From Syntrophales bacterium (GTDB lineage Bacteria > Desulfobacterota > Syntrophia > Syntrophales > UBA2210): a DNA stretch of 64,000 nt. The notes below the pieces were generated by a model, which searched no databases, was not told the origin of the DNA, and saw only the letters and a list, made by a program, of their open reading frames with translations. Of the stretch, positions 43,253 through 49,703 are shown piece after piece. Location: NCBI GenBank assembly GCA_963662405.2, contig CAXXKT010000001.1:1248001-1312000 (forward strand), in the 5' to 3' direction. Positions within the stretch are counted from its first letter, which is position 1; each line of letters opens with the position of its first letter. The translations under genes were made by a program, and so were the position numbers.

Positions 43253-44153
43253 CTATCCTTCCGCCCGTTTCAGACACTCCTCCCACCGGTGATTGACCGA
43301 CGCCTGGAGCGTGCCGAGCTGCTCGATGCTCATCTTCTTGAATCTGCTCTGTCGCTCCACGTAATTGACGAGGGGGAGGAGCTTCCCCCGCTCGGCCATC
43401 GTCTTGCTCCTCCCGGTGAAACGGAAGCGGCCATCCTCGATCTCGAAGAGGATAAAAAGCCCCGTCTCCACGGCGAGCTTCCCGATTCGGACCGTATCCT
43501 TTGTGGGATACCCCCACCCGGGGGGGCAGGGTGTGTCGATCTGGATGTACCGGGTTCCCCGTATCTTCTTGGCCTTGACGAACTTGTCGTACAGGTCGAC
43601 CGGGTAGGCGGGGGAGACGGTCGCCAGGTAAGGGATATGGTGCGCCTCCATGATCTTCAGGAAATCCTTCTTGGGGTCCTGCTTCGTCAGGACGGGGGTT
43701 GTCGTGGTAAGGGGCGCCCAGGGGGGTTGCGCCGGAGCGCTGCGTCCCCGTGTTCATGTAGGCCTCGTTGTCGTAGCAGGCGAAGATAAAGTCGGTGTTT
43801 CGCTCGGCCGCACCGCTCAGAGACTGGATCCCGATGTCATAGGTGCCGCCGTCTCCGGAAAGGGCCAGGACGGTGATGTCGGTCTTGTTAAGGGCCCGCA
43901 GGCCGGCCACCATCCCGGCGGCGGATGCCGCGTTCCCGGCGAAGGTGGTATTGAGGGCGGGGACGATGGTCGAGGTAGTGGGGTACAGCCCGTGCAGAAC
44001 ACAGAGGCAGCTCGGGGGGATTCCCACGATCGTGTTTTCGCGCAGTGCTTTGAGGATGTAGCGGTAGGCCAGAGAAAGACCGCACCCCTGACAGGCGCGA
44101 TTTCCCGGGAGGATGTATTCCTTCTCGTTGATCTTGAAGATGGTTTCGTGCAT
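43253..44153 (-). pseudogene. 2-oxoacid:ferredoxin oxidoreductase beta subunit with a +1 frameshift (real or sequencing error)
   Basis: ACQGC, SGDGGTYDIG...YDNEAYMNTG (TPP-binding), PCPPGW; an extra base in the G4 run 43711-43714 splits the gene into two ORFs. Confidence 0.85.
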
Positions 44154-44157
44154 TATC

Positions 44158-45366
44158 TTATCCTGTGTGGCAATTAAGCCATATCGTTTTGTTGTCCCTG
44201 TCGCCCGCTTCGACCGATGCATAGGCCGCCCGCGCCGCCCCCACCAGTTCGCGGGTCTTGACATCCCGACCCCCCAGCCCCGAGATATGGTCATGGATAG
44301 GGGCCGTGATATCCGTACCGTAGAAGGCGGCCTTCAGGTCGGACGCGATCCCCCCCTCGTACCCGTAACTGATGCACTTTTCGAAGATCGCGATGGCGCG
44401 GGCCTTGGCGAAGGCCCGCCGGACCTCTTTCTTCGGGAACGGTCGGTAGACCCTGATCCCGACGACCCCCGCCTTGATCCCCCCGGCGCGGAGCACGTCC
44501 GCGGCCAAGGTCGCCTCGGTGGCGATTGAGCCCATCCCGGTCAGGATCAGCTCGGCGTCGTCCGTGAGGTATTCCCAGAGCATCCCCCCGTGATCACGCC
44601 CCGTCAGTTTCGCCCAGTCATCGCTTGCCGCGGTGATGGTCTTCGGAGATCTCTCAAAGGCATCCTGCATCTTGTAGCGCATCTCCATATACCCGTCACA
44701 GAGGATCCCCTCCGCGTTTTCCCGGCGCGAGGCAAAGAAGACGGGATTGATCGTCACCGGCTTCTCCGGGGAGAGGGTGGTCTGCGGTACGTAGGGAGGG
44801 AGGTATGTCTTAACCGTCTCTTCCTTCGGGATATCCACCGGCATCATCGTGTGAGAGAGGACGAAGCCGTCGTAACAGACCATCACCGGGAGGTAGACCT
44901 CTTCGGCAATCCGGTACGCCTGGAGAACCGTGTCGAGGATCTCCTGGTTGTCCCGGCAGTAGATCTGTATCCACCCCGTGTCCCGTTGCGAGAAAGAGTC
45001 CTGCTGGTCGTTGAAGATGGACCAAGGAGCCCCGACGCCCCGGTTGACGCAGCACATGACGACCGGGAGGCGGGATCCCGCCGCCCAGTGCAGCTGCTCG
45101 TGCATATAAAGGAGCCCATTGGAACTGGTCGCCGTGAAGACACGGGCCCCTACCGTGGATGCCGAGATGCAGACGGTCAGAGAGGAGTGCTCCGACTCCA
45201 CCCGGACATATTCCGCCTTCAGTTCCCCCTTCTCGACGTATTCGGACAGGACCTCGGCCAGTTTGGTTTGTGGTGTGATGGGGTAGGCCGCGATGACGCC
45301 GGGCCGGGCCAATTTTACCGCCAGGGCCGCCGCCTCGTTCCCCATGATGATGCGGACGTCACTCAT
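44158..45366 (-). CDS. 2-oxoacid:ferredoxin oxidoreductase alpha subunit
   Basis: GNEAAA, AAYPITPQT, VESEHS, TATSS. Confidence 0.95.
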   Translation of the reverse strand: MSDVRIIMGNEAAALAVKLARPGVIAAYPITPQTKLAEVLSEYVEKGELKAEYVRVESEHSSLTVCISASTVGARVFTATSSNGLLYMHEQLHWAAGSRLPVVMCCVNRGVGAPWSIFNDQQDSFSQRDTGWIQIYCRDNQEILDTVLQAYRIAEEVYLPVMVCYDGFVLSHTMMPVDIPKEETVKTYLPPYVPQTTLSPEKPVTINPVFFASRRENAEGILCDGYMEMRYKMQDAFERSPKTITAASDDWAKLTGRDHGGMLWEYLTDDAELILTGMGSIATEATLAADVLRAGGIKAGVVGIRVYRPFPKKEVRRAFAKARAIAIFEKCISYGYEGGIASDLKAAFYGTDITAPIHDHISGLGGRDVKTRELVGAARAAYASVEAGDRDNKTIWLNCHTG

Positions 45367-45652
45367 CGATATCCACCTCCCGTACCATCTGTATCGCGTT
45401 GGGGGGGCATTCCTCCGCGCAGATCCCGCATCCCTTGCAGTAGTCCATGTCGATGACCACCGGAATCGTCATGGTGACCACCCCTTCCGGGCAGTAGAGC
45501 CAGCAGAGAAAACAGGCCGCTTTTCCCTTGATCTCGGGGATACATTTGGTCGGATCGATCACGGGACGCAGGTCCCGCCACTCTCCCGTTCTCCCCGCTT
45601 CGCCGGGGGCCGGCGTGCAGACCCCCGATATGTTGGTGTCAATCTTTTCCAT
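45359..45652 (-). CDS. 2-oxoacid:ferredoxin oxidoreductase delta subunit (2x[4Fe-4S])
   Basis: TGEWR..RPVID, CFLCWLYCPEG, YCKGCGICAEECP. Confidence 0.93.
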   Translation of the reverse strand: MEKIDTNISGVCTPAPGEAGRTGEWRDLRPVIDPTKCIPEIKGKAACFLCWLYCPEGVVTMTIPVVIDMDYCKGCGICAEECPPNAIQMVREVDIDE

Positions 45653-46220
45653 TACCCTCCCAGACCTCGGTTCTGTCAAAGGCCGTTTTGATGGCCTGAA
45701 AATTAAAGGCCGCTTTATTTCGCGGCATCTTTTGCTTGATCCCCTCTTCGATGCTATCGAGGGAAACCAGCCCCGATGCCCGGCAGAAGGCCCCGAGGAG
45801 CGGCGTGTTCACGATCGGGGTCCCGCCCATGCTGAGGTGATGTTCCCACGCAATCCGCGCTGCATCGACCGTCGCAACGGAGAAGCACTCCCGGACCCCG
45901 AGCTGTTCCGGATTCAGGGGGGTGTTGATGATAACGATTCCGTTTTTCCTGAGCAGCTCCTCACCGGTCGCCGCCGCAAGGAGGGACGGGTCCAGAACGA
46001 CGGCGATGTCGGCCGGTGCGACCTGTGAGAAGGTCCTGACCGGCTCGTCCGCAATTCGTGTCGAAGCGGTCAGGGGCGCACCCCTGCGCTCCGGGCCGAA
46101 GGTGGGAGCAGAGGTGACACCCCGGAAGCCATGAATATAGGCCGCCTCGGCCAGTATCTGGGCCGCCAGGACCACGCCTTGGCCACCCCTTCCGTGCCAT
46201 AGTATCTCGTGCATTGCCAT
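45639..46220 (-). CDS. 2-oxoacid:ferredoxin oxidoreductase gamma subunit
   Basis: HGRGGQG, FGPERRGAP, NT.LLGA. Confidence 0.95.
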   Translation of the reverse strand: MAMHEILWHGRGGQGVVLAAQILAEAAYIHGFRGVTSAPTFGPERRGAPLTASTRIADEPVRTFSQVAPADIAVVLDPSLLAAATGEELLRKNGIVIINTPLNPEQLGVRECFSVATVDAARIAWEHHLSMGGTPIVNTPLLGAFCRASGLVSLDSIEEGIKQKMPRNKAAFNFQAIKTAFDRTEVWEGNGKD

Positions 46221-46233
46221 TGGATTTCCTCAC

Positions 46234-46268
46234 AAAAAAGGCCATGAAGCATTCGCCCATGGCCTTTT
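46234..46268 (-). terminator. Attenuator terminator (3:4 hairpin) just upstream of the OFOR operon
   Basis: AAAAGGCCATG-GGCGAATGCTT-CATGGCCTTTTTT; the U-run ends 13 nt before the gamma-subunit ATG. Confidence 0.88.
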
Positions 46269-46288
46269 GAACTCTCTCTGCTGTTGCG

Positions 46289-46393
46289 TTACACTCCAGT
46301 GACGACAGGCCGCGGGCGGATTATGAGCCCGCTAAGGACGAGGCCGAGCAAGAACAGTAGATTCAGCAGCACTGCGTACAACCACCCTGTCAT
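46289..46393 (-). CDS. Putative branched-chain amino acid attenuation leader peptide, MTGWLYAVLLNLLFLLGLVLSGLIIRPRPVVTGV (34 aa)
   Basis: SD GAAAGGA, ATG 46393, TAA 46291-46289; 10 Leu, 5 Val, 2 Ile; overlaps alternative RNA hairpins. Confidence 0.8.
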   Translation of the reverse strand: MTGWLYAVLLNLLFLLGLVLSGLIIRPRPVVTGV

Positions 46394-46423
46394 CGGAGAT
46401 ATTCCTTTCAAGAAGTGCTACCC

Positions 46424-46452
46424 CTCCTACACCGGGTGCGTCGAAAAGTCAA
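46424..46452 (-). promoter_or_regulatory. Candidate sigma70 promoter for the leader/OFOR operon
   Basis: TTGACT (46452-46447), 17 nt, TAGGAG. Confidence 0.45.
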
Positions 46453-46504: not shown

Positions 46505-48142
46505 TCATTCGGTAGCCAGATGCCGCATCTCCGCCTCCAGCTTTGCGAGGAGGGGAGGGAAGGTGCGGGGGTTGAGCGCCGACAGCGGAATAGCATCGAA
46601 GCGACGGCAGACGTTATCCAGGATTGCCTCACCGTCGGAGAAGAGATCGATCTTGTTGAAGACGCGCAGATACCGTTTCCCCTGCAGATCAAGTTCCTCG
46701 AGGATCCGGTCCACGGCGTGGATCTGTTGCTCAAAAGAGGGGTTGCTCACATCGATGACGTGGAGGAGGAGATCGGCTTCCTCCAGTTCCTCCAGGGTTG
46801 CGCGGAAGGCGGCGGCAAGCTCTTTCGGGAGATTCCGGATGAATCCCACCGTGTCCGTGATGATCGCCTCCCGATCCCGGGGAAAGCGGAGTCGCGAACT
46901 CTTCGGGTCGAGGGTGGCGAAGAGGAGATCCTCGGTCAGAACACGGCTCTGGGTCAGGGCGTTGAGGAGGGTCGACTTTCCCGTATTGGTATAGCCGACA
47001 ATGGAGATGACGGGGAGCCCCTGTTTGCGCCTGAGTCGACGTCGCTGACCCCTCCCCTTCCGGACATTTTTCAGTTCTTTCTTGAGACGTCCGATTCGTT
47101 CACGGACCCGACGACGGTTGATCTCAAGCTTTGTCTCCCCCGGTCCGGTTCCCCCGATTCCCCCGGTGAGACGGGACATGGCCGTGTTTTTGGTTGCGAG
47201 GCGCGGGAGGAGGTATTGAAGCTGGGCGAGTTCGACCTGGATCTTTCCCTCACGGCTGTGGGCGCGGCGGGCGAAGATATCCAGTATCAACTGGGAGCGG
47301 TCGATCACCTTCAGATCGGTAAAATCGGTGATGGAACGGATCTGGGCGGGGGAGAGCTCGTGGTCGAAGATCAAAAGTCCTGCCCCGATCTGGAGCGCCC
47401 GTATGACGACGTCGGAGAGCCTTCCCCTCCCCATCAGGTACCGGGGGTCGTAGTCATGCCGGTGCTGAACGACGGTGTCGAGAACCTCCACGCCGGATGA
47501 ACGTGCCAGTTCGCGCAGTTCTCCCAGTGAAGCCTTGCTATCGAACAGGGGATCAACGGCAACCCGTATCAGGATGGCCCCTTCGCTCGTACCCACCTTC
47601 CGCGTCCGTCCGCTCCGTGCGAACTCTTCCTCCAGGGCCTGGATGAATTCACTGAAATTCAGATCCACCGTGAAGACGGGGGTCGGGTCCATCAGGAGCC
47701 AGTAAGTACCCCCGGGATTTTCGGGGATGAGATGCGCCGAGTGAATCCTGCCGGGGAGTCCGTCCTGGTCGACCTCGATTGCCGAGACCATATCGAGTCG
47801 CAGGAGGGCAAGATCGGTGAGGTCGTCCTCGGTCAATTCCTCACCGCCGAGGTGGGTGTGGATGAGGCGCAGCCCCTTGAGGCGTGTTGAGGCTGACCGA
47901 ATTCCATCGAGAGCGGGGATAACGATCTGCCGGTGGTCACCGATGATGACCCGTGCGATCTCTCCCCGGCGGCTGACCAGGATGCCGATCTGTCGGTTCA
48001 CCCGGCGAGACAGCGCCGCGATCTCCCGTGCCATCTCGGTCGTCACGATCCTTTCGGGGGGCACCCTTCTGCGATAGAGACGCTGTATGTCCTTCATGTC
48101 CGATGGCTTGATGCCGTCGGTGTTTCCCTGGATTTTTTCTAT
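46505..48142 (-). CDS. hflX: Ribosome-splitting GTPase HflX, long form; probable ATA start
   Basis: LILDIFARRA, GGIGGTGPGETKLE, VGYTNTGKSTL, LFATLDP, DTVGFI, NKID. Confidence 0.93.
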   Translation of the reverse strand: MEKIQGNTDGIKPSDMKDIQRLYRRRVPPERIVTTEMAREIAALSRRVNRQIGILVSRRGEIARVIIGDHRQIVIPALDGIRSASTRLKGLRLIHTHLGGEELTEDDLTDLALLRLDMVSAIEVDQDGLPGRIHSAHLIPENPGGTYWLLMDPTPVFTVDLNFSEFIQALEEEFARSGRTRKVGTSEGAILIRVAVDPLFDSKASLGELRELARSSGVEVLDTVVQHRHDYDPRYLMGRGRLSDVVIRALQIGAGLLIFDHELSPAQIRSITDFTDLKVIDRSQLILDIFARRAHSREGKIQVELAQLQYLLPRLATKNTAMSRLTGGIGGTGPGETKLEINRRRVRERIGRLKKELKNVRKGRGQRRRLRRKQGLPVISIVGYTNTGKSTLLNALTQSRVLTEDLLFATLDPKSSRLRFPRDREAIITDTVGFIRNLPKELAAAFRATLEELEEADLLLHVIDVSNPSFEQQIHAVDRILEELDLQGKRYLRVFNKIDLFSDGEAILDNVCRRFDAIPLSALNPRTFPPLLAKLEAEMRHLATE

Positions 48143-48208
48143 GACTGCCTCCTCCCCGCAGCACCTTGTATCATAAAACGGAGCGAGAAGACATACGTTA
48201 CCCGGTAA

Positions 48209-48239
48209 AGAGCCCCGGGAAGGGGTCCCCCGGGGCTCT
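48209..48239 (-). terminator. Terminator hairpin after the porin genes
   Basis: AGAGCCCCGGG / CCCGGGGCTCT perfect inverted repeat. Confidence 0.7.
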
Positions 48240-48275
48240 GCCATTTTTATTCGTGCGTCGTAGATACACTCGCCC

Positions 48276-49571
48276 TTAGAAGCTCAAAGTCAACTTGTGC
48301 ATGACGAGGTAATCGCTGGCGACTTCTGCGGTTTTGTTAGGGCCTTTGTACCAGTCGCCGGGCCAGAAGTGACCGAAGCCGACCACGTATTCGAGATTGT
48401 CGAAGAGCCGGTATGTCGCGGTGATATCGAGTTCTTCCCCGATATCACGATCGACGGCATTCCCCTGTTCATCGACCCTGGCGTATGTCAGGGACACGAA
48501 GAGGTCGAGCCTCGGCATCGGTGTGATCCCGGCGTAGATCTGATACAACCAGGCGTTGGCCATCGTATCGCCGGTGGTATTGCCGCCGAGGCCCTCACCG
48601 AGGTCATGGCCGGACCATTTTACCAGTTCATCGTTCCAGAGGATCAGGCAGGGGCTGTAGTCCGAACCGGTAAAACCGCCTTCATGCCGGTCGTCTGTGT
48701 TGGGATCGTCTCCCTGGACAAAGGCGATCTGGCCGCCGATATACGCGTTCCCCCTGGTGTACTTCGCGTTGATGTAGGCGGACCAGGAGTCGAGATCGAT
48801 ATCCTCGGCAAGGGGGAAGAGATCCTTGATCCACTGGTCCAACTCCATATAGTTTCCAAAGGAGTAGATCGCCTCCGCTTCGACAGAGAGATTGCCGGCC
48901 CGATACTTGACGTAGGGGAGGAAAGAACAGAGGGACGTGTCGAAGATGGGCTTCATGTCGGCGTAGTCGAAATACCAGACGAGAAGACCGGCCTCTCCCC
49001 CCGCGAAGGGTTTGACGACGTACAGCTGGTATTCGTCCATATCGAGGTCCGTATAGGCTGTTCCCCGGTCACCCTCGTAGTACTTCGCGATGCTGGCGCC
49101 GACGATCCATCCCCTGATCTCGTTTTGCCAGGCGATGAGGGCACCGTCGTATTCTTCATCGCCGAAGGCCGTTCCCCAGAGCCCGTCCTGCTGATAGCCG
49201 ATCCGGAATCGTCCGTACTTCGTGGATGCATCGAGATAGGCACGATCGAAATCGATATTGTCATCGTCCCTTCCCGTATCATATTCACGGGGTCCCCCGG
49301 GGGTGTCCCAGTATCCCTCCAGGGCGTCGAAACGGGTGATCAGTTTGAGGGACGGGCTGATAGTAAATTCCGTCCGGACCCGGAGGCGGGTGTTGTACCA
49401 CGCGCTGGAGGAGCCGTTTGCACCGGCCTCCTCTTTCATCAGGTCACCGTTGTCATCGTACCAGCCTGCGACATAGAAACTGCCGCTGACGCTCAGGTCT
49501 GTCGCCATGGCAGAGGGGGCGAGTGCCGCCATCAGACTCAGTACGACAAATACCCCCAGATATTTTTTCAT
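48276..49571 (-). CDS. Outer-membrane beta-barrel porin, paralog 2
   Basis: Signal peptide ending AMA, amphipathic strands, C-terminal KLTLSF. Confidence 0.85.
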   Translation of the reverse strand: MKKYLGVFVVLSLMAALAPSAMATDLSVSGSFYVAGWYDDNGDLMKEEAGANGSSSAWYNTRLRVRTEFTISPSLKLITRFDALEGYWDTPGGPREYDTGRDDDNIDFDRAYLDASTKYGRFRIGYQQDGLWGTAFGDEEYDGALIAWQNEIRGWIVGASIAKYYEGDRGTAYTDLDMDEYQLYVVKPFAGGEAGLLVWYFDYADMKPIFDTSLCSFLPYVKYRAGNLSVEAEAIYSFGNYMELDQWIKDLFPLAEDIDLDSWSAYINAKYTRGNAYIGGQIAFVQGDDPNTDDRHEGGFTGSDYSPCLILWNDELVKWSGHDLGEGLGGNTTGDTMANAWLYQIYAGITPMPRLDLFVSLTYARVDEQGNAVDRDIGEELDITATYRLFDNLEYVVGFGHFWPGDWYKGPNKTAEVASDYLVMHKLTLSF

Positions 49572-49621
49572 TATCTCTTCCTCCTGTCGTATCGGTGGTT
49601 GCAAACTGTCCGTGCCTCGTT

Positions 49622-49660
49622 AAAAAAAGGCCCCGGAGGATGATTCCCCCGAGGCCCGTT
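49622..49660 (-). terminator. Terminator between the two porin genes
   Basis: GGCCTCGG...CCGGGGCC followed by TTTTTTT on the minus strand. Confidence 0.75.
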
Positions 49661-49703
49661 TTGTGTTTATCGGTGTATCAGGAATACACACCCGGTACCG
49701 ATA

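What the first reader, a model, noticed from the sequence alone, without database searches (positions are those of the whole stretch)
46234..46452. Leu/Val/Ile leader-peptide attenuator upstream of a 2-oxoacid:ferredoxin oxidoreductase operon
Seen on the minus strand: a promoter-like element, SD GAAAGGA, and a 34-codon ORF (46393-46289) MTGWLYAVLLNLLFLLGLVLSGLIIRPRPVVTGV. Half its codons are branched-chain (10 Leu, 5 Val, 2 Ile), including CTA, TTG, CTT and ATA. Three mutually exclusive helices follow. 1:2 protector: GCGGGC (46332-46327) with GCCCGC (46317-46312). 2:3 antiterminator: CGCCCGCGGCCU (46318-46307) with AGGCCAUGGGCG (46265-46254), 11 of 12 positions paired. 3:4 terminator: AAAAGGCCAUG/CAUGGCCUUUUUU (46268-46234), ending just before the gamma-subunit SD. 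Established: this is the architecture of ribosome-mediated attenuators such as enterobacterial ilvL, ivbL and leuL. Inference: stalling on Leu/Ile/Val codons masks segment 1, allows 2:3 to form and permits read-through. I am not aware of a leader-peptide attenuator described for an OFOR operon. The ORF is too short for the supplied track.
Basis: partly seen in the sequence, partly recalled or inferred. Interest (0 to 1): 0.92.

Follow-up and report, generated by a model that had tools for sequence, protein, structure and literature searches.

The report
Leucine-sensing attenuator before oxidoreductase operon
A tiny leucine-rich gene and three alternative RNA hairpins form a classic ribosome-read transcription switch in front of a ferredoxin-dependent 2-oxoacid oxidoreductase operon; the same switch sits in front of the leucine-synthesis gene leuA in relatives, which implies that this redox enzyme is turned on to help make leucine when it runs short.

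Summary
In 45 distinct orthologous leaders the uORF, the promoter spacing, the protector, the antiterminator and the terminator recur. All three helices show compensatory changes. None of 45 paralogous OFOR loci has the leader.

Correction: it senses leucine, not Leu/Ile/Val. The control window is 51% Leu, 0.6% Ile and 3% Val. An RNA model built only from OFOR leaders retrieves the same leader in front of leuA at 42 of 90 Syntrophales hits examined, read in another frame. So the RNA, not the peptide, is conserved, and the polarity is 'on when Leu is short'. The OFOR is therefore probably anabolic; isovaleryl-CoA carboxylation is the best guess, untested. The genome has a parallel Trp leader on IOR and an aryl-CoA ligase.

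The mechanism is textbook; the target was not found in my ten paper searches. This scan reported the same element before on other genomes. No expression data were available.

The parts
46447..46452 (-). -35 hexamer TTGACT of a sigma70-like promoter
   Evidence: TTGAC[AT] in 45 of 45 leaders at 54-94 nt before the uORF start
46424..46429 (-). -10 hexamer TAGGAG, 17 nt after the -35 (poor consensus, only TA conserved)
   Evidence: T in 44 of 45 and A in 44 of 45 at positions 1-2; not called by the strict scan
46403..46409 (-). Shine-Dalgarno GAAAGGA of the leader ORF
   Evidence: purine-rich GAAAGG-type sites before most family-f1 leaders
46289..46393 (-). Leader peptide ORF, 34 codons
   Evidence: 31-41 codon orthologues in 45 distinct leaders
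46334..46369 (-). Leu control codons (codons 9-20, 8 Leu); conserved core Leu-Leu-x-Leu-x-Leu ends in CTC GTC CTT at 46342-46334
   Evidence: Leu at -3 in 37 of 44 and at -2 in 40 of 44 (positions not used for anchoring); CTC in 40 of 44 and CTT in 36 of 44 at the anchor
46312..46332 (-). 1:2 protector hairpin (46332-46327 with 46317-46312)
   Evidence: -10.8 kcal/mol; in 41 relatives 82% paired, 5 of 7 pairs with double changes, 28 cells against 9.6 shuffled
46254..46318 (-). 2:3 antiterminator (46318-46307 with 46265-46254)
   Evidence: in 41 relatives 95.6% paired, 4 of 16 pairs with double changes
46234..46268 (-). 3:4 intrinsic terminator with U tract
   Evidence: -18.8 kcal/mol; in 43 leaders 98.7% paired, 4 of 9 pairs with double changes
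46227..46231 (-). SD GAGGA of the gamma subunit gene
45639..46220 (-). OFOR gamma subunit (PorC/KorC-type)
   Evidence: TIGR02175 167 bits, cut-off 81
45359..45652 (-). OFOR delta subunit (ferredoxin-like)
   Evidence: TIGR02179 87.9 bits, cut-off 60
44158..45366 (-). OFOR alpha subunit
   Evidence: best NF040682 PorA_Arch 426 bits, below its cut-off of 550; PDB 9bt4_B E 1e-90
43253..44153 (-). OFOR beta subunit, split in this assembly by one extra base near 43711 (probable assembly error)
   Evidence: two halves hit VorB/PorB models; continuous in 5 relatives shown; one short-read contig lacks the base
46505..48244 (-). hflX, upstream neighbour, not part of the element
   Evidence: TIGR03156 430.6 bits, over cut-off

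Best explanation
This is a leucine-sensing, ribosome-coupled transcription attenuator. RNA polymerase starts at the TTGACT promoter and a ribosome translates the leader. With charged tRNA-Leu plentiful, the ribosome runs to the stop codon and covers segment 2, so 3:4 forms and transcription ends near 46234. When Leu is short, the ribosome stalls on the Leu run. It then covers segment 1 (which starts 4 nt after the first base of the last core Leu codon) and leaves segment 2 free to pair with segment 3 before segment 4 is made. The gamma-delta-alpha-beta OFOR operon is then transcribed. SHOWN: the sequence, the conservation, the covariation, the Leu bias and the shared family with leuA leaders. 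INFERRED: translation, termination and the leucine response. FURTHER INFERRED: the enzyme runs in the reductive, carboxylating direction to supply a Leu precursor (about 0.8), most simply isovaleryl-CoA + CO2 + reduced ferredoxin to 2-oxoisocaproate (about 0.45).
For: The leader is present in 29 of 32 orthologous loci with enough upstream DNA and in 0 of 45 paralogues. All three helices have compensatory changes above shuffles. In a simulated stall scan, the energy holding segment 3 peaks at 13.5 kcal/mol with the A site on the Leu core and falls to 2.7 at the stop codon (44 leaders). The control window is 51% Leu against about 9% genome-wide. The same RNA family precedes leuA at 42 of 90 Syntrophales hits examined, which fixes both the signal and the polarity. 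The conserved segment is read in three frames. The genome uses the same design for trpE, trpB2, ilvB, aroF and cimA-like genes. WWW leaders precede 7 of 9 orthologous IOR alpha loci and 0 of 21 paralogues. A separate POR-like paralogue keeps a PFOR-type loop, while this clade has a different, near-invariant loop. Leucine formation by carboxylation of isovalerate is described for rumen anaerobes (PMC7356843, passages).
Against: There is no expression, ribosome or termination data. At equilibrium the full transcript folds into the terminator even with segment 1 masked (-29.6 against -25.9 kcal/mol), so the switch must be kinetic. In the model, segment 3 is also largely sequestered for stalls upstream of the core (P about 0.8; 9.7-11.3 kcal/mol), so the protector's effect is modest. 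It is weak (above -4 kcal/mol) or absent in 14 of 44 leaders. The antiterminator beats synonymous recoding at the 5% level in only 19 of 45 leaders, and its outer three pairs do not covary beyond shuffles (P 0.23-0.36). The 41-row set was picked with a pattern that partly fixes the inner helix, and the rows are related. The genome has a full de novo Leu route, no acyl-CoA ligase is conserved next to this operon, and no family model assigns the substrate.
Confidence: 0.88

Rival explanations
1. Same Leu attenuator, different substrate: the OFOR makes 2-oxoisovalerate from isobutyryl-CoA, or pyruvate from acetyl-CoA, to feed the LeuA pathway rather than bypass it.
For: The alpha subunit scores equally against the Thermococcales PorA and VorA models (360.7 and 356.9 bits) and best against PorA_Arch, all below cut-off. 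The de novo pathway is complete. No ligase for isovalerate is linked to the operon.
Against: A Val or pyruvate supply enzyme would be expected to respond to Val/Ile too, as the two ilvB leaders of this genome appear to. A POR-like paralogue without a detected leader exists.
Confidence: 0.3
2. A multivalent Leu/Ile/Val attenuator like ilvL.
For: This genome's leader has 5 Val and 2 Ile, one Val inside the core. L061 has extra Ile/Val codons.
Against: Ile is 0.6% and Val 3.1% of the control window, and 30 of 44 leaders have neither there. Stalls at the Ile or late Val positions reduce antitermination in the model. The same family sits on leuA.
Confidence: 0.06
3. The ORF is a small membrane protein and the hairpin is simply its terminator (or hflX's).
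For: The window's peptide is very hydrophobic (maximum 19-residue Kyte-Doolittle 2.69), and 17 of 45 leaders reach 1.6.
Against: 28 of 45 leaders fall below 1.6, and the N-terminal positions share only 7-12% pairwise identity. The conserved segment is read in three frames. The element always lies just before OFOR gamma or leuA. It covaries in helices that a plain terminator does not need.
Confidence: 0.03
4. A catabolic operon induced by leucine through nascent-peptide stalling (tnaC-like), the OFOR oxidising 2-oxoisocaproate.
For: OFORs are reversible and VOR/IOR can be catabolic (PMC13768988, passages). The leaders have a Pro-rich C-terminal part.
Against: A ribosome held near the C terminus covers segment 2 and favours termination. 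The Pro-rich part is not conserved as peptide. The same leader controls leuA.
Confidence: 0.03

Closest known systems
Enterobacterial leuL attenuator (Rfam Leu_leader RF00512), with ilvL, ivbL and trpL (mechanism recalled, no paper read)
   Same: Short uORF with a run of cognate codons just before a protector hairpin, an overlapping antiterminator and an intrinsic terminator ahead of the regulated operon.
   Different: No Rfam match at the gathering score or at E up to 10, so it is a separate sequence family. It controls a ferredoxin oxidoreductase as well as leuA.
leuA leaders of Syntrophales (found here; deltaproteobacterial leuA attenuators were predicted by Lopatovskaia, Seliverstov and Lyubetsky 2010, recalled and not seen)
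   Same: Same RNA family by covariance model (E 1e-17 to 1e-6), same Leu core and terminator.
   Different: The downstream gene is OFOR gamma. The shared segment is read in another frame. In this genome the OFOR copy is the only model hit, and leuA follows cimA behind an Ile/Thr-rich leader.
Four-subunit gamma-delta-alpha-beta OFORs: PFOR of PDB 9BT4, oxalate oxidoreductase 5C4I, Thermococcales POR/VOR
   Same: Subunit set and order; YPITP motif and the Arg of the alpha loop.
   Different: Below every equivalog cut-off. The alpha loop after the Arg and the beta motif after the cluster Cys differ from both solved enzymes. No characterised member of the clade was found.
[quoted passage not shown]
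   Same: It would be the reaction this regulation predicts.
   Different: Described physiologically in rumen bacteria. No link to this enzyme clade or to attenuation was found.
T-box riboswitches (RF00230) on amino-acid genes of Bacillota and deltaproteobacteria
   Same: They also read uncharged tRNA and switch a terminator. T-box control of por-type operons in clostridia is recalled only; the papers were not held.
   Different: No T-box match in the window. Sensing here needs a translated uORF.

Membership tests
Classical leader-peptide transcription attenuator | Short uORF with ribosome-binding site between promoter and first gene | tested here: met
Classical leader-peptide transcription attenuator | Cluster of codons for one amino acid just 5' of segment 1 | tested here: met
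   51% Leu in the control window, 3-8 Leu per leader in 44 leaders
Classical leader-peptide transcription attenuator | Intrinsic terminator 3:4 with U tract | tested here: met
Classical leader-peptide transcription attenuator | Antiterminator 2:3 excluding the terminator | tested here: met
   covariation modest, outer pairs not significant
Classical leader-peptide transcription attenuator | Protector 1:2 excluding the antiterminator | tested here: met
   weak or absent in 14 of 44 leaders
Classical leader-peptide transcription attenuator | Ribosome position switches the structure | tested here: inconclusive
   The folding model gives the expected profile, but the terminator wins at equilibrium; a kinetic test is needed
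Classical leader-peptide transcription attenuator | Translation of the uORF and amino-acid-dependent termination in vivo | not testable with these tools
   needs Ribo-seq, Term-seq or reporters
Rfam Leu_leader RF00512 | Match to the family covariance model | tested here: not met
   no hit at the gathering score or at E up to 10
ilvL-type multivalent (Leu/Ile/Val) attenuator | Conserved Ile and Val control codons | tested here: not met
   Ile 0.6%, Val 3.1%
T-box riboswitch RF00230 | Match to the T-box model | tested here: not met
Pyruvate/2-ketoisovalerate-family four-subunit OFOR | Gamma TIGR02175 and delta TIGR02179 above cut-off, with alpha and beta following | tested here: met
VOR (2-ketoisovalerate oxidoreductase) or POR equivalog | Alpha/beta above the equivalog cut-off | tested here: not met
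   alpha 356.9 against 646 (VorA), 426 against 550 (PorA_Arch)
VOR (2-ketoisovalerate oxidoreductase) or POR equivalog | Substrate specificity and direction | not testable with these tools
   needs enzyme assay

The most novel reading that the evidence does not exclude
The operon encodes a dedicated biosynthetic 2-oxoisocaproate synthase (isovaleryl-CoA reductive carboxylase), an enzyme for the long-known isovalerate route to leucine. It acquired a copy of the leuA attenuator in the Syntrophales ancestor (the sister clade has no leader). It is one arm of an attenuator-run salvage network that rebuilds amino acids from fermentation acids by CO2 fixation: Leu via this OFOR, Trp via IOR plus an aryl-CoA ligase, and Phe via a transporter plus ligases.
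Probability: 0.45. Interest if true: 0.78.

Novelty: new variant of a known kind. Interest (0 to 1): 0.6.

Why it matters
OFOR paralogues are hard to annotate: substrate and direction cannot be read from family models, and this clade is simply labelled pyruvate ferredoxin oxidoreductase in databases. A leucine attenuator shared with leuA gives a genome-encoded prediction that an enzyme found in 61 of 101 Syntrophales genomes searched is biosynthetic and tied to leucine. That names a concrete candidate for reductive carboxylation of a branched-chain acyl-CoA in energy-starved syntrophs. It also shows that leader peptides can be used to assign function to redox enzymes. The switch itself is ordinary.

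Tried and rejected
Negative or uninformative tests:
- Rfam, whole window and at E up to 10 on the leader: no regulatory family, only two chance hits.
- The strict promoter/terminator scan found nothing, and the whole-region folding z-score was not significant.
- RNAalifold on all leaders returned only the terminator, because two registers of the antiterminator exist; the helices were then counted separately. One search had the 3' columns off by two and was redone.
- A first protector search picked long multi-bulge folds and was replaced by a simple-hairpin search.
- Outer antiterminator pairs show no covariation beyond shuffles.
- Sequencing runs: no RNA holder listed.
- The homologue search gave only generic names.
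- Flanking genes of orthologues (hflX, kdtA-like, porins, a dehydrogenase) and of the sister clade gave no substrate clue.
- Phylum-wide model search: none of 25 non-Syntrophales hits examined precedes an OFOR gamma gene.

Literature: ten searches listed no paper describing a leader-peptide attenuator on an OFOR; I saw listings and abstract starts only. Seven look-ups of older papers (T-box surveys, archaeal POR/VOR and aryl-acid papers, Allison 1966) were not held. Russian-group attenuation surveys are outside the library, so a prior in-silico prediction in those papers or their supplements cannot be excluded. I opened no supplements.

Rejected readings: T-box, riboswitch without translation, multivalent sensing, membrane peptide, catabolic induction.

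Full report
Observation. The element lies between hflX and an operon for the gamma, delta, alpha and beta subunits of a pyruvate/2-ketoisovalerate-family OFOR. Taken alone the region is not unusually stable (z -0.82), the strict promoter and terminator scan misses it, and Rfam has no family for it. The closest named relatives are Syntrophaceae/Syntrophales genomes (record titles).

Conservation, first sample. Of the 30 best gamma loci from 61 related genomes, 29 have upstream DNA and all 29 have the terminator. 28 have a 31-41 codon uORF ending 21-36 nt before it, and L013 has the Leu core with an earlier stop.

Conservation, second sample. Among 80 loci from the species-level collection, 35 have at least 53% gamma identity. 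Three of these end at a contig edge and 29 of the other 32 carry the leader (one, L059, with a decayed U tract). L071 keeps only the 3' part, and L049 and L058 lack it. None of the 45 loci at 45% identity or less gave a uORF plus terminator (four have under 400 nt upstream). That includes the six nearest sister-clade loci, five of which show a -35-like site directly upstream. For statistics I used 45 distinct leaders out of 65 loci, dropping 9 duplicates, 9 without a match to my terminator pattern and 2 without a qualifying uORF. All 45 have TTGAC[AT] 54-94 nt before the start. The alpha subunit of this clade is found in 61 of 101 Syntrophales genomes searched.

Structures. Terminator, 43 leaders: 98.7% of cells paired, 14 cells with double changes against 3.3 in shuffles. 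The antiterminator comes in two registers. In the larger group (41 rows, chosen by a pattern that partly fixes the inner helix) the protector is 82% paired with 28 double-change cells against 9.6, and the antiterminator is 95.6% paired with 7 against 1.3. Slid controls are lower for cells paired in all three. These rows are relatives, so the shuffle counts are not probabilities. Against the reading: the outermost antiterminator pairs do not covary, the duplex beats synonymous recoding in only 19 of 45 leaders (mean z -1.5; this window 2 of 200), and the protector is weak or absent in 14 of 44.

Stall simulation. Masking 13 nt from each A-site codon and folding the nascent RNA up to segment 3, the energy that holds segment 3 is 9.7-11.3 kcal/mol for upstream stalls, 13.5 on the Leu core, and 2.5-3 from nine codons later to the stop. 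With segment 4 present the terminator wins at equilibrium, so the decision must be co-transcriptional, as is generally held for attenuators (recalled).

Signal. Anchored on a Leu-x-Leu core (so those two columns are Leu by construction), the unselected positions -3 and -2 are Leu in 37 and 40 of 44 leaders. The window -7 to +3 is 51% Leu, 0.6% Ile and 3.1% Val. The less-used TTG and TTA codons are about three times their genome share. The Ile codons of this leader sit in the hairpin loop and the Val pair after segment 2, too late to help antitermination. The sensor is therefore leucine.

Same family on leuA. A covariance model built from 43 OFOR leaders hits 99 of 101 Syntrophales genomes at E up to 0.01, many weakly. 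I examined 90 hits: the 30 best, 40 further strong ones that I picked (the first 20 partly for not lying at known OFOR positions) and 20 weaker full-length ones. 38 precede OFOR gamma, 42 precede leuA, 1 is at a contig end and 9 precede other genes, several with aromatic leaders. The segment that forms the antiterminator is read in frame 0 in 28 OFOR leaders, frame 1 in 2, and frame 2 in 7 leuA leaders. The RNA, not the peptide, is what is kept. This outweighs the high hydrophobicity of this window's peptide. Outside the order, 3 of 25 hits examined precede leuA and none an OFOR. The simplest history is duplication of the leuA leader onto the OFOR operon within Syntrophales (inference; no tree made).

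Genome context. A scan of the genome for uORF plus terminator gave 16 candidates. They include Trp leaders before trpE- and trpB2-like genes, Ile/Val leaders before two ilvB-like genes and a Tyr/Phe leader before an aroF-like gene (these gene names are from recognisable N termini, recalled). Trp leaders also precede a PaaK-like ligase and an IOR alpha gene. The IOR leader recurs in 7 of 9 orthologous loci and 0 of 21 paralogues. So a second OFOR is under amino-acid attenuation, next to the ligase needed for salvage. The de novo Leu route is complete (ilvC, ilvD, leuA, leuB, leuCD and an ilvE-like gene below cut-off), so the OFOR is a parallel or feeder route.

Enzyme. No equivalog cut-off is reached. 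The alpha loop after the conserved Arg is near-invariant in the clade and differs from the solved PFOR 9BT4 and from a POR-like paralogue in the same genome; the beta motif differs too. This argues for a substrate other than pyruvate but does not name it. The beta gene has an extra base near 43711. It is continuous in relatives and one short-read contig (depth 2.3) lacks the base, so this is probably an assembly error.

Mechanism and odds. Leu-sensing attenuator: 0.88. Anabolic role of the OFOR: about 0.8. Isovaleryl-CoA as the substrate: about 0.45, against about 0.3 for isobutyryl-CoA or acetyl-CoA. Leucine synthesis by carboxylation of isovalerate is known physiology in rumen anaerobes (PMC7356843, passages). 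A 2026 PFOR review (PMC13768988, passages) does not contain 'attenuat' or 'Syntroph'.

Novelty. It works like leuL but is not a member of RF00512. The mechanism is known and the target is new as far as ten searches of an incomplete library show. Older comparative-genomic surveys could not be read. Four earlier reports of this scan describe the same element on other genomes; they are not independent support. Verdict: new variant of a known kind, interest 0.6.

Noticed in passing
G000:C1:2013132-2017167 (L111): Two tandem WWW leader attenuators, one before a PaaK-like acyl-CoA ligase and one before IOR alpha/beta followed by TRAP transporter genes; the IOR leader recurs in 7 of 9 orthologous loci.
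   Followed up: partly
G000:C1:2712783 onward (L113); also L217: Phe-rich leader with terminator before an ABC transporter operon containing a fatty-acid CoA ligase and a PaaK-like ligase; a similar Phe leader occurs in another Syntrophales genome.
   Followed up: partly
G000:C1:2209665 (L114): Tyr-rich leader with terminator before an amino-acid ABC permease.
   Followed up: no
G000:C3:185300-191622 (L112): Ile/Thr-rich short ORF and hairpin before citramalate synthase-leuA-leuC-leuD, with leuB on the opposite strand; here leuA lacks the Leu leader that it has in most Syntrophales.
   Followed up: partly
window 43253-44153: Beta subunit frameshift near 43711 and a second extra base at 43385, both absent from one short-read contig: likely assembly errors.
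   Followed up: yes
L238 (G167) and L237 (G237): Leu-rich leaders of similar build outside Syntrophales: one before a FabK-like flavoprotein, one with no long downstream gene and an acyl-CoA dehydrogenase-like ORF upstream.
   Followed up: partly
L242, L253, L244, L245, L254, L256: In other Desulfobacterota: a Tyr-rich ORF plus terminator before a PRK06836 aminotransferase (L253; L242 has the same gene), Lys-rich ORFs before dapA, and aromatic-rich ORFs before probable shikimate kinase genes (name recalled), suggesting further attenuator types.
   Followed up: no
L023, L024, L037, L045, L052; L224: Extra 110-180 nt, in L023 and L024 with inverted repeats, lie between the terminator and the gamma start in several orthologues; in L224 a transposase-like ORF follows the leader.
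   Followed up: no
window 48276-50975: Two tandem paralogous porin-like outer-membrane protein genes upstream of hflX.
   Followed up: no
window 52623-57781: rRNA operon (16S, two tRNAs, 23S, 5S).
   Followed up: no
G000:C1:256922, 1963613, 2354116, 2657676: Four near-identical copies of a repeated element with short TGGACCA repeats.
   Followed up: no
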